A stretch of DNA of 64,000 nt from NCBI RefSeq assembly GCF_045037415.1, contig NZ_CP173438.1. One strand, given 5' to 3'. Positions 21,695-22,027 of the stretch are shown one piece after another. The notes under the pieces are model-generated. The model was not told the origin of the DNA. It did not search any database and saw only the letters and a list, made by a program, of their open reading frames with translations. The DNA comes from Escherichia coli (GTDB taxonomy: Bacteria; Pseudomonadota; Gammaproteobacteria; Enterobacterales; Enterobacteriaceae). The position numbers and the translations under genes were made by a program. Every line of letters starts with the position of its first letter. The first letter of the stretch is position 1.

Positions 21695-21709
21695 TCTATT
21701 GCACAACGA

Positions 21710-21733
21710 GGAAGCTAAAAGGCTTCCTTTGTT
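21710..21733 (+). terminator. Probable rho-independent terminator after bcr
   Basis: hairpin ggaagc-taaaag-gcttcc followed by tttgttg. Confidence 0.5.
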
Positions 21734-22027
21734 GATGCATGTCAACCACAAATCTATCATTCCCCCGATATATGTTTATTTTATGTAAAATCAATTTATG
21801 TAAAAAGTCACATCATTGTAGTTAAAAAGGTTGAGTTAGATCGCAGAAACGGGTACATATAGCCCCGCAAACGTGACCACGCCCGCAGATATTATTTAAA
21901 TCAGAGCCATATAGGCCACGCAGGCGAGGCATCAATCTTTACGATCTGTATAAAGACGGATTGTTGATGATGTGTTAAAATTGATGTAAATAAATTGTGA
22001 AGTAAAATGTACTTCCGGGGAAAATAA

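What the first reader, a model, noticed from the sequence alone, without database searches (positions are those of the whole stretch)
21695..22027. Repeated ATGTAAA-type motifs in the AT-rich bcr-yejG intergenic region
ttatgtaaaa occurs twice 15 bp apart (21781-21790 and 21796-21805), with related copies ttgatgtaaataa and gaagtaaaatgta near 21981-22013, in a ~330 bp AT-rich spacer upstream of yejG (GTG start). Regularly spaced direct repeats suggest binding sites for a regulator or nucleoid protein controlling the poorly characterized yejG.
Basis: seen in the sequence. Interest (0 to 1): 0.25.

Follow-up and report, generated by a model that had tools for sequence, protein, structure and literature searches.

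The report
Known ArcA repressor sites upstream of yejG
The repeated ATGTAAA-type motifs between bcr and yejG in E. coli are real, and two of the four belong to already published binding sites of the oxygen-responsive regulator ArcA, which shuts off yejG without oxygen, so the finding is correct but not new.

Summary
The window is E. coli (radD-rsuA-bcr-yejG-yejFEBA). TTTATGTAAAA occurs twice, 15 bp apart (21780-21790 and 21795-21805), in a 333-bp spacer with 37% GC. Related copies lie at 21981-21993 and 22001-13.

The motifs are already explained. Park et al. 2013 (PMC3798270, supplements) list two ArcA ChIP-seq sites here. The distal 3-repeat site, ATGTTTATTTTATGTAAAATCAATTTATGTA, is window 21772-21802. 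The proximal 4-repeat site is window 21961-22004 and spans -26 to +18 of yejG promoter P1. yejG is derepressed 11.9-fold in an arcA mutant.

My tests agree:
- An ArcA matrix built from 114 other published boxes puts three of its top four hits in the 64-kb window into this spacer.
- The boxes are kept in at least 91% of 79 Enterobacteriaceae species.

The working period is 11 bp, not 15.
- Copy 1 is distal repeat DR2.
- Copy 3 is proximal repeat DR3.
- Copy 2 is out of phase and may belong to a CRP-like site.
- Copy 4 is strain-specific and absent from K-12.

Verdict: already known, low interest. The one loose end is a ~90-bp block upstream of promoter P2, more conserved than the ArcA site alone explains.

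The parts
21709..21733 (+). bcr intrinsic terminator: hairpin GGAAGC-TAAAAG-GCTTCC followed by TTTGTT. It marks the upstream edge of the yejG regulatory region.
   Evidence: RNA fold of 21700-21740 gives -21.4 kcal/mol, z = -6.6. The stem changes by compensatory substitutions across genera, e.g. GGGGGC/GCCCCC and AGGCCC/GGGCCT. The simple terminator scan missed it because it finds fewer than 5 T in the tail.
21772..21802 (+). Distal ArcA site, called 'yejG2' by Park et al. 2013. A weak DR3 is centred at 21796. The site lies at -95 to -65 of promoter P2.
   Evidence: The published site string ATGTTTATTTTATGTAAAATCAATTTATGTA (U00096.2 2276484-2276514; Ri 8/8.5/1.4 bits; ChIP peak 1.9x in one replicate) is identical to the window sequence. 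My 18-bp ArcA matrix scores it 18.1 bits, the 4th best hit in the window. A box of at least 12 bits is kept here in 99% of 79 species.
21795..21812 (+). As a single element it looks like an ArcA repeat but sits 15 bp from DR2, out of the 11-bp phase. It overlaps a CRP-like 16-mer, TATGTAAAAAGTCACA (21797-812), centred at -62.5 of P2.
   Evidence: The DR scan gives ATGTAAA 8.8 bits at coordinate 21801, 15 bp after DR2, with no partner at +/-11 bp. The CRP matrix gives 7.7 bits in E. coli. In 22 of the other species the site reads (T/A/C)GTGTAAAAAGTCAC(A/G) and scores 9.9-11.5 bits. CRP binds the bcr-yejG spacer in vitro in genomic SELEX, but those authors assigned other boxes.
21831..21867 (+). 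yejG promoter P2: -35 TTGAGT (21831-36), 17-bp spacer, -10 TACATA (21854-59), transcription start at G21867. An A-tract, TTAAAAAGG, lies just upstream of the -35.
   Evidence: Primer-extension start site at U00096.2 2,276,419 (dPeak paper, Table 1), converted with U00096.2 = 2298286 - window. That bridge is anchored on the printed ArcA site strings. The hexamer assignment is my inference from the sequence. The segment is 93% identical across 78 species.
21961..22004 (+). It covers -26 to +18 of promoter P1.
   Evidence: Park et al. Tables S1-S6 give a ChIP-seq peak of 8.2-8.5x, an ArcA box ttgttgatgatgtgttaa of 18.8 bits, four DRs with Ri 8.6/9.7/9.8/5.3 bits, and the site at 2276282-2276325. 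My left-out matrix scores 19.1 and 20.7 bits, the 3rd and 2nd best hits in the window. DR coordinates match at 21964/21975/21987/21998. A box of at least 12 bits is kept in 91% of species.
21973..21987 (+). yejG promoter P1: extended -10 element TGtTAAAAT (21973-81) and transcription start at about 21987. Both are embedded in ArcA DR2-DR3.
   Evidence: Primer-extension start site at U00096.2 2,276,299. The -10 assignment is my inference from the sequence.
22001..22013 (+). It is a strain-variable sequence, out of phase with DR4, and not part of the published ArcA site.
   Evidence: K-12 reads gaagt-gaatgtg. Other species vary here. AAGTAAA scores 6.0 bits but lies only 5 bp after DR4. The 60 bp around it is identical in only 548 of 5426 E. 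coli genomes. In this strain it creates a promoter-like TTGATG-16-TAAAAT.
22028..22372 (+). yejG coding sequence (114 aa, GTG start), the regulated gene. Its function is unknown.
   Evidence: ORF list; RefSeq annotation 'YejG family protein'; Pfam PF13989 YejG-like, E = 5.8e-51.

Best explanation
The ATGTAAA-type motifs are direct-repeat (DR) half-sites for phosphorylated ArcA, the response regulator of the ArcB/ArcA redox two-component system. The DR consensus is (A/T)TGTTAA, and ArcA dimers bind pairs of DRs 11 bp apart.

The spacer holds two ArcA sites:
- The proximal site has four DRs (21961-22004). It lies over the extended -10 element and the start site of yejG promoter P1, at -26 to +18.
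- The distal site has three DRs (21772-21802). It lies at -95 to -65 of the upstream promoter P2.

When oxygen is absent, ArcA-P occupies these sites, RNA polymerase is excluded, and yejG is repressed about 12-fold.

Shown in published data: ArcA occupancy in vivo, the two start sites, loss of sigma70 occupancy anaerobically, and derepression in arcA mutants. Shown here: the window sequences are those sites, they score as top ArcA boxes with an independent matrix, and they are conserved across Enterobacteriaceae.

Inferred: occlusion of P1 as the mechanism; a roadblock to P2 transcripts by the proximal site, which lies at +95 to +138 of P2; and the role of the distal site, which may interfere with an upstream activator or act cooperatively with the proximal site.

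Copy 4 is not part of the system.
For: Published evidence:
- Park et al. 2013 supplements print both sites with per-repeat scores, ChIP-seq enrichments (8.2-8.5x proximal, 1.9x distal), 11.9-fold derepression of yejG in the arcA mutant, and the position -26 to +18.
- The printed site strings match the window exactly (distal) or with 2 substitutions (proximal).
- Start sites P1 and P2 were mapped by primer extension.
- Sigma70 ChIP-seq at yejG reads 1462 aerobically against 56 anaerobically, and yejG mRNA differs 4-fold between aerobic and anaerobic growth.
- In Salmonella, arcA mutant/wild-type ratios for yejG are 2.4 to 5.8, with a predicted box GTCAATGATGTGTTA at the orthologous place.

- An ArcA matrix built from 114 published boxes, with yejG1 left out, gives 20.7, 19.1 and 18.1 bits. 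These are three of the four best hits on both strands of the 64-kb window.
- In-phase repeats are spaced 11/12/11 and 11 bp.
- A box of at least 12 bits is kept in 99% (distal) and 91% (proximal) of 79 species.
- Block identity is 0.78-0.93, against 0.56 at yejG third codon positions.
Against: - The distal site has only weak ChIP enrichment (1.9x, one replicate), although it sits in the most conserved part of the spacer. ArcA alone may therefore not explain that block.
- The second exact copy is 15 bp from DR2, not 11. Park et al. score only 1.4 bits for a DR3 in a different register.
- No footprint or site-directed mutation of the yejG sites has been published, as far as I could find.
- All binding data are from K-12, not from this strain.
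Confidence: 0.9

Rival explanations
1. Copy 2, together with the conserved AAAAAGTCACA, is (also) a CRP site centred near -62.5 of P2, making P2 a class I CRP-activated promoter. The distal ArcA site next to it would then work by interfering with CRP or with the RNA polymerase alpha subunit. This adds to the ArcA explanation rather than replacing it.
For: - CRP selects the bcr-yejG spacer in vitro: 2 SELEX clones plus a SELEX-chip peak.
- 21797-21812 scores 7.7 bits in E. coli. In 22 of the other species it reads (T/A/C)GTGTAAAAAGTCAC(A/G) and scores 9.9-11.5 bits.
- The TCACA half is nearly invariant.
- The position fits class I spacing to within 1 bp.
Against: - The E. coli score is below the 25th percentile of the SELEX boxes.
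- The SELEX authors assigned other boxes: GGTGATCTATTGCACA at 21690-705 (11.7 bits) and GTTGAGTTAGATCGCA at 21830-45 (10.1 bits).
- Matches to the CRP consensus are not enriched in the window.
- I found no in vivo CRP data for yejG.
Confidence: 0.3
2. The repeats are bound by a nucleoid-associated protein (Fis, IHF or H-NS), and this shapes yejG expression.
For: Myers et al. Table S6 marks the predicted FNR site at 2,276,541 (window 21732-45, about 40 bp upstream of the repeats) as lying in a published Fis ChIP-seq region. The spacer is AT-rich at 37% GC.
Against: - The H-NS and IHF ChIP-chip tables of the same study contain no yejG or bcr entry.
- The best IHF core match has a mismatch in the TTR part.
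- Nucleotide-level conservation with an 11-bp TGT phase fits a sequence-specific response regulator better than a loosely specific nucleoid protein.
Confidence: 0.15
3. Another OmpR/PhoB-family regulator with a similar 11-bp direct-repeat box uses the same repeats. The main candidate is PhoP, whose box is (T/G)GTTTA-N5-(T/G)GTTTA.
For: - yejG is 2.7-fold (array) and 3.9-fold (qRT-PCR) higher in a Shigella flexneri phoPQ mutant.
- TGTTTATTTTATGTAAA (from 21773) and TGTTGATGATGTGTTAA (from 21962) each differ from the PhoP box by 2 mismatches.
Against: - There is no binding data, and the effect may be indirect.
- Another 2-mismatch match occurs in the unconserved part of the spacer, at 21936.
- The ArcA data already account for occupancy and for the much larger regulatory effect.
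Confidence: 0.1
4. The repeats are chance products of AT-rich, low-complexity intergenic DNA or of the promoter hexamers themselves, and have no protein-binding role.
For: - The motif is not enriched across the whole window.
- Some 7-mer reaches three copies in 12% of shuffles of the spacer.
- Copy 4 is indeed unconstrained.
Against: - The 11-mer pair has P~0.003 in local shuffles.
- Copies 1-3 are nearly invariant across 79 species, while neighbouring spacer DNA is 42-51% identical.
- Published ChIP-seq places ArcA on them.
Confidence: 0.02

Closest known systems
ArcA multi-repeat operator sites (Park et al. 2013), e.g. the four-DR astC and fumA sites and the three-DR icdA and acs sites
   Same: The repeat consensus, the 11-bp centre-to-centre spacing, the three to four repeats per site, the overlap with the core promoter, and anaerobic repression of a sigma70 promoter all match. 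The yejG sites are themselves entries in that paper's Tables S1-S6.
   Different: Nothing essential. The yejG sites were never footprinted or discussed in that paper's main text. The locus has two ArcA sites about 190 bp apart serving two promoters, as also listed there for nuoA, pdhR, oppA and kgtP.
CpxR box GTAAA-N5-GTAAA (consensus quoted from my own knowledge of the literature)
   Different: In the exact pair the GTAAA cores are separated by N10, not N5. The best N5 match has 2 mismatches. This is not a CpxR box.
TyrR box TGTAAA-N6-TTTACA (consensus quoted from my own knowledge)
   Same: The half-site TGTAAA is identical.
   Different: TyrR boxes are palindromes. Here the half-sites are direct repeats, and the best palindromic match has 3 mismatches.
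Class I CRP-dependent promoters (site centred at -61.5)
   Same: A TGTGT/TATGT-N6-TCACA element is centred at -62.5 of P2. CRP binds the spacer in vitro.
   Different: The E. coli site is weak (7.7 bits), lies 1 bp off the canonical position, and has no in vivo evidence. The SELEX study proposed other boxes.

Membership tests
ArcA-P binding site (ArcA box / multi-DR site) | Two or more direct-repeat elements (consensus (A/T)TGTTAA) at 11-bp centre-to-centre spacing | tested here: met
   A 7-nt DR matrix built from published boxes finds elements at 21775 and 21786 (11 bp apart) and at 21964, 21975, 21987 and 21998 (11/12/11 bp apart), each 7.2-8.8 bits. Only 0.28% of window positions reach 6 bits.
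ArcA-P binding site (ArcA box / multi-DR site) | The 18-bp box scores within the range of bona fide ArcA boxes | tested here: met
   With the yejG1 box left out of training, scores are 20.7, 19.1 and 18.1 bits. The training median is 16.1 and the 95th percentile 20.3. These are ranks 2, 3 and 4 of about 128,000 positions on both strands of the window.
ArcA-P binding site (ArcA box / multi-DR site) | Occupied by ArcA in vivo | not testable with these tools
   Published for K-12: ChIP-seq peaks yejG1 at 8.2-8.5x and yejG2 at 1.9x in one replicate (Park et al. 2013 Tables S1-S2). I matched the printed site sequences to the window.
ArcA-P binding site (ArcA box / multi-DR site) | ArcA-dependent expression of the adjacent gene | not testable with these tools
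   Published: yejG is 11.9-fold higher in the arcA mutant under anaerobic growth. In the Salmonella arcA mutant the ratios are 2.4-5.8. Sigma70 occupancy is 1462 aerobically against 56 anaerobically.
ArcA-P binding site (ArcA box / multi-DR site) | The sites are conserved at orthologous promoters | tested here: met
   The best box is at least 12 bits in 99% (distal) and 91% (proximal) of 79 Enterobacteriaceae species, at conserved distances from the yejG start.
   Its coordinate, 21801, is 15 bp from DR2, and no element of at least 4 bits lies at +/-11 bp. The 18-bp box that pairs DR2 with the in-phase register next to copy 2 (21783-21800) scores only 5.1 bits, and no box starting in copy 2 exceeds 5 bits. 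TAGTTAA at 21822 lies 21 bp away, so a 2-turn partner cannot be excluded.
CRP site | 16-bp TGTGA-N6-TCACA palindrome scoring like known sites | tested here: inconclusive
   21797-812 scores 7.7 bits, below the 25th percentile of 147 SELEX boxes, but 9.9-11.5 bits in 22 of the other species. 21690-705 scores 11.7 bits and 21830-45 scores 10.1 bits. In vitro binding to the spacer is published but not resolved to one box.
CpxR box | GTAAA-N5-GTAAA | tested here: not met
   The best match in the spacer has 2 mismatches. The exact GTAAA pair is separated by N10.
TyrR box | Palindrome TGTAAA-N6-TTTACA | tested here: not met
   The best match has 3 mismatches, and the half-sites are direct repeats, not inverted.
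Known RNA family or sRNA in the spacer | Match to an Rfam covariance model | tested here: not met
   The only matches are noise: ST7-AS2_1 at 21.7 bits against a gathering score of 80, and a CRISPR-DR model at E = 1.7.

The most novel reading that the evidence does not exclude
The ~90-bp block 21773-21863 is as conserved as first and second codon positions and extends well beyond the distal ArcA site, whose ChIP signal is weak. It includes the out-of-phase second ATGTAAA copy, AAAAAGTCACATCATTGTAG, the A-tract and even the P2 -35/-10 spacer. The most novel reading is that this block is a composite control module for P2. It would be read by one or more further factors (CRP at -62.5, Fis, sigma32 holoenzyme, or an unidentified protein), with ArcA acting there as an anti-activator rather than a simple repressor.
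Probability: 0.25. Interest if true: 0.3.

Novelty: already known. Interest (0 to 1): 0.1.

Why it matters
It matters little as a discovery. The sites, their repeat architecture, the two promoters and the ArcA-dependent repression of yejG have been in the literature since 2013.

The check does show that a reader working from sequence alone recovered a genuine operator array. It also gives a corrected map for this strain: which copies are functional repeats, which are out of phase, and which are strain noise.

Two modest points go beyond the published tables:
- Both ArcA sites are conserved at nucleotide level across 79 Enterobacteriaceae species. That marks yejG, a protein of unknown function, as an ancient and tightly oxygen-controlled member of the Arc regulon.
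- The P2 upstream block is more constrained than the ArcA site alone explains.

Tried and rejected
- sRNA or structured RNA in the spacer: Rfam gave only noise. Conservation stops exactly at the P2 start site, which fits a promoter rather than a transcript.
- Small protein on the minus strand inside the conserved block (MYPFLRSNSTFLTTMM, 21808-21858): rejected. The orthologous Klebsiella and Kluyvera sequences (GATCACAG...) introduce early stop codons (my reading of the alignment).
- CpxR, TyrR, RstA and IHF consensus matches: spacing or symmetry is wrong, or key positions mismatch.
- FNR: a near-consensus TTGATGCATGTCAA lies at 21732-45, upstream of the repeats. It is published as predicted but not bound in vivo, and it is not the repeat motif.
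- Sigma70 promoter reading of the distal pair (TTTATG-15-TAAAAA, or minus-strand TTTACA-15-TAAAAT): the spacers are too short, the scan did not report them, and no mapped start site fits.
- The SELEX-predicted constitutive promoter TTGATG-17-TATCAT (21732-60): its -10 is poorly conserved, and no start site was mapped there by primer extension.
- Literature leads that gave nothing relevant: a GalR predicted site and a Cra site lie inside the yejG coding sequence; an incidental yejG mutation in an autotrophic strain; the ISEV abstract book text is not held; no supplement is held for the Cra/CRP ChIP-exo paper.

Full report
**Locus.** The window is Escherichia coli. The 431 bp around the finding occur once in 5425 of 5426 complete E. 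coli genomes at 95-100% identity, annotated as bcr and yejG. The K-12 gene order is yejABEF, yejG, bcr, rsuA, radD, reversed relative to the window. bcr ends at 21694. yejG (114 aa, Pfam YejG-like, function unknown) starts with GTG at 22028.

**Observation.**
- The exact repeat is 11 nt, TTTATGTAAAA, at 21780-90 and 21795-805.
- The spacer is 333 bp with 36.9% GC, against 51.3% for the window.
- Across the window the motif is not enriched, but 3 of the 5 ATGTAAA copies lie in this spacer.
- In 5000 dinucleotide-preserving shuffles of the spacer, an exact direct repeat of 11 nt or more within 30 bp has P~0.003.
- The distal pair is identical in K-12. The fourth copy is not: K-12 reads gaagt-gaatgtg.
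- In the E. coli population the 65 bp around the distal pair is at least 99% identical in 5186 genomes. The 60 bp around copies 3-4 is identical in only 548.

**Promoters.** The dPeak paper (PMC3798280) mapped two sigma70-dependent yejG start sites by primer extension, at U00096.2 2,276,299 (P1) and 2,276,419 (P2). I converted coordinates with U00096.2 = 2298286 - window. This bridge rests on the ArcA site strings printed by Park et al., which I located in the window.
- P2 starts at G21867. By my reading of the sequence, its -35 is TTGAGT at 21831-36 and its -10 is TACATA at 21854-59.
- P1 starts at about 21987, behind an extended -10 element TGtTAAAAT at 21973-81.
- The distal repeat pair therefore lies at -87 to -62 of P2. 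Copy 3 spans the P1 start site.

**The explanation is already published.** The supplements of Park et al. 2013 (PMC3798270) list two ArcA ChIP-seq sites at yejG.
- 'yejG1' has 8.2-8.5x enrichment and an ArcA box ttgttgatgatgtgttaa of 18.8 bits. It has four direct repeats with Ri 8.6/9.7/9.8/5.3 bits. The site is TTGTTGATGATGTGTTAAAATTGATGTAAACAAATTGTGAAGTG, at -26 to +18 of the start site.
- 'yejG2' has 1.9x enrichment in one replicate and three repeats with Ri 8/8.5/1.4 bits. The site is ATGTTTATTTTATGTAAAATCAATTTATGTA.
- These correspond to window 21961-22004 and 21772-21802.
- yejG is 11.9-fold derepressed in the arcA mutant under anaerobic growth.

Supporting data come from other studies.
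- Myers et al. 2013 (PMC3688515) report sigma70 ChIP-seq occupancy at yejG of 1462 aerobically against 56 anaerobically. They also report a 4-fold difference in yejG mRNA between aerobic and anaerobic growth.
- In Salmonella, yejG shows arcA mutant/wild-type ratios of 2.4-5.8, and a box is predicted at the orthologous place.

**Independent tests done here.**
1. I built an 18-bp matrix from 114 published ArcA boxes, leaving the yejG1 box out. It gives 20.7 bits (21984-22001), 19.1 bits (21961-78) and 18.1 bits (21772-89). These are three of the four best hits on both strands of the 64-kb window. The top hit is the published yeiQ box.
2. A single-repeat matrix places elements at 21775/21786 and at 21964/21975/21987/21998, exactly the published coordinates. 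The spacings are 11 bp, and 11/12/11 bp.
3. I recovered the bcr-yejG spacer from 78 other Enterobacteriaceae species. Synteny is kept throughout, and the spacer length is about 330 bp in most of them.
4. In the alignment, 21773-21863 and 21965-22003 are nearly invariant, while the DNA between them is 42% identical.
5. For comparison, yejG codon positions 1, 2 and 3 are 88%, 93% and 56% identical.
6. The best ArcA box is at least 12 bits in 99% (distal) and 91% (proximal) of the species.

- Copy 1 is distal DR2.
- Copy 3 is proximal DR3.
- Copy 2 looks like a good single repeat (8.8 bits) but lies 15 bp from DR2 and has no partner at 11 bp. Park et al. instead score a 1.4-bit DR3 in another register.
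- Copy 4 lies 5 bp after DR4, is absent from K-12, and varies among species.

The working period is thus 11 bp, as expected for head-to-tail dimers of an OmpR/PhoB-family regulator.

**Mechanism.**
- Shown: ArcA occupancy, the promoter positions, anaerobic loss of sigma70 occupancy, and ArcA-dependent repression.
- Inferred: the four proximal repeats occlude the extended -10 element and the start site of P1. Because they lie at +95 to +138 of P2, they could also block P2 transcripts.
- Unclear: the role of the distal site. Its ChIP signal is weak, yet it sits in the best-conserved block.

**A secondary reading for copy 2.** In 22 of the other species the sequence reads (T/A/C)GTGTAAAAAGTCAC(A/G), a near-consensus CRP site scoring 9.9-11.5 bits with a matrix from 147 SELEX boxes. 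The E. coli version, TATGTAAAAAGTCACA, scores 7.7 bits. It is centred at -62.5 of P2. CRP selects this spacer in vitro. However, the authors assigned two other boxes, at 21690-705 (11.7 bits) and 21830-45 (10.1 bits). This remains open.

**Other candidates.**
- CpxR, TyrR, RstA and IHF consensus patterns fail on spacing, symmetry or key positions.
- Fis has a published ChIP-seq region touching 21732-45. The H-NS and IHF tables of the same study contain no yejG or bcr entry.
- PhoP is a weak alternative user of the same repeats. yejG is 2.7- to 3.9-fold up in a Shigella phoPQ mutant, and the boxes differ from the PhoP consensus by 2 mismatches.
- No RNA family matches the spacer.
- A 16-codon minus-strand ORF in the conserved block is broken in Klebsiella and Kluyvera.

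**Verdict.** The regulator is ArcA, and the feature is already known. Interest is low. The only loose end is why the roughly 90 bp upstream of P2 are constrained at every position, beyond what the ArcA site explains.

Noticed in passing
window 21773-21863: A ~90-bp non-coding block is 88-93% identical across 78 other Enterobacteriaceae species. That equals yejG codon positions 1-2 and far exceeds position 3 (56%). It covers the distal ArcA site, AAAAAGTCACATCATTGTAG, an A-tract, and the whole P2 -35/spacer/-10. Conservation ends at the P2 start site. ArcA, with its weak ChIP signal here, does not obviously explain all of it.
   Followed up: partly
window 21732-21745: An FNR-consensus palindrome, TTGATGCATGTCAA, lies just after the bcr terminator. 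It is conserved across genera and reads as a perfect TTGATACATATCAA in Klebsiella and Kluyvera. Myers et al. list it as a 14.1-bit predicted FNR site that is not bound in ChIP and is overlapped by a Fis ChIP-seq region. It is also the -35 of the SELEX-predicted promoter TTGATG-17-TATCAT.
   Followed up: partly
window 21690-21705: A CRP-like box, GGTGATCTATTGCACA, overlaps the bcr stop codon. It scores 11.7 bits, rank 8 in the window. It is the box Shimada et al. assigned to their SELEX peak. It is conserved at 8 bits or more in about 45% of species and lost in, for example, Klebsiella.
   Followed up: partly
window ~21820-21834 (P2 region): Two independent weak sigma32 signals map here. One is an RpoH genomic-SELEX peak at U00096.2 2,276,452. 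The other is a sigma32 ChIP-chip candidate at 2,276,466 (log2 ratio 0.6). By eye, the match to the sigma32 consensus is poor.
   Followed up: no
window 21981-22008: In this strain the polymorphic fourth copy creates a promoter-like TTGATG-16-TAAAAT, 9 of 12 matches to consensus. K-12 lacks it because its -10 position reads GTGAAT. It could give this lineage a third yejG start about 12 nt before the GTG.
   Followed up: no
window 21709-21733: The bcr terminator hairpin shows clean compensatory stem changes across genera. The simple terminator scan nevertheless missed it.
   Followed up: yes
window 55282-55299 (minus strand): ATGTTAAAACATCGTTAT scores 17.6 bits with the ArcA box matrix and is not among the 114 training boxes. 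It lies in a divergent intergenic region between ORFs of 278 aa (54359-55195, minus) and 222 aa (55453-56121, plus). Their sizes and position suggest yeiG and folE. It may be a further ArcA site.
   Followed up: no
window 21867-21960: The first ~95 nt of the P2-derived 5' leader (21867-21960) are poorly conserved (42% identity). Enterobacter asburiae lacks about 55 bp of it. This argues against a conserved leader RNA structure.
   Followed up: no
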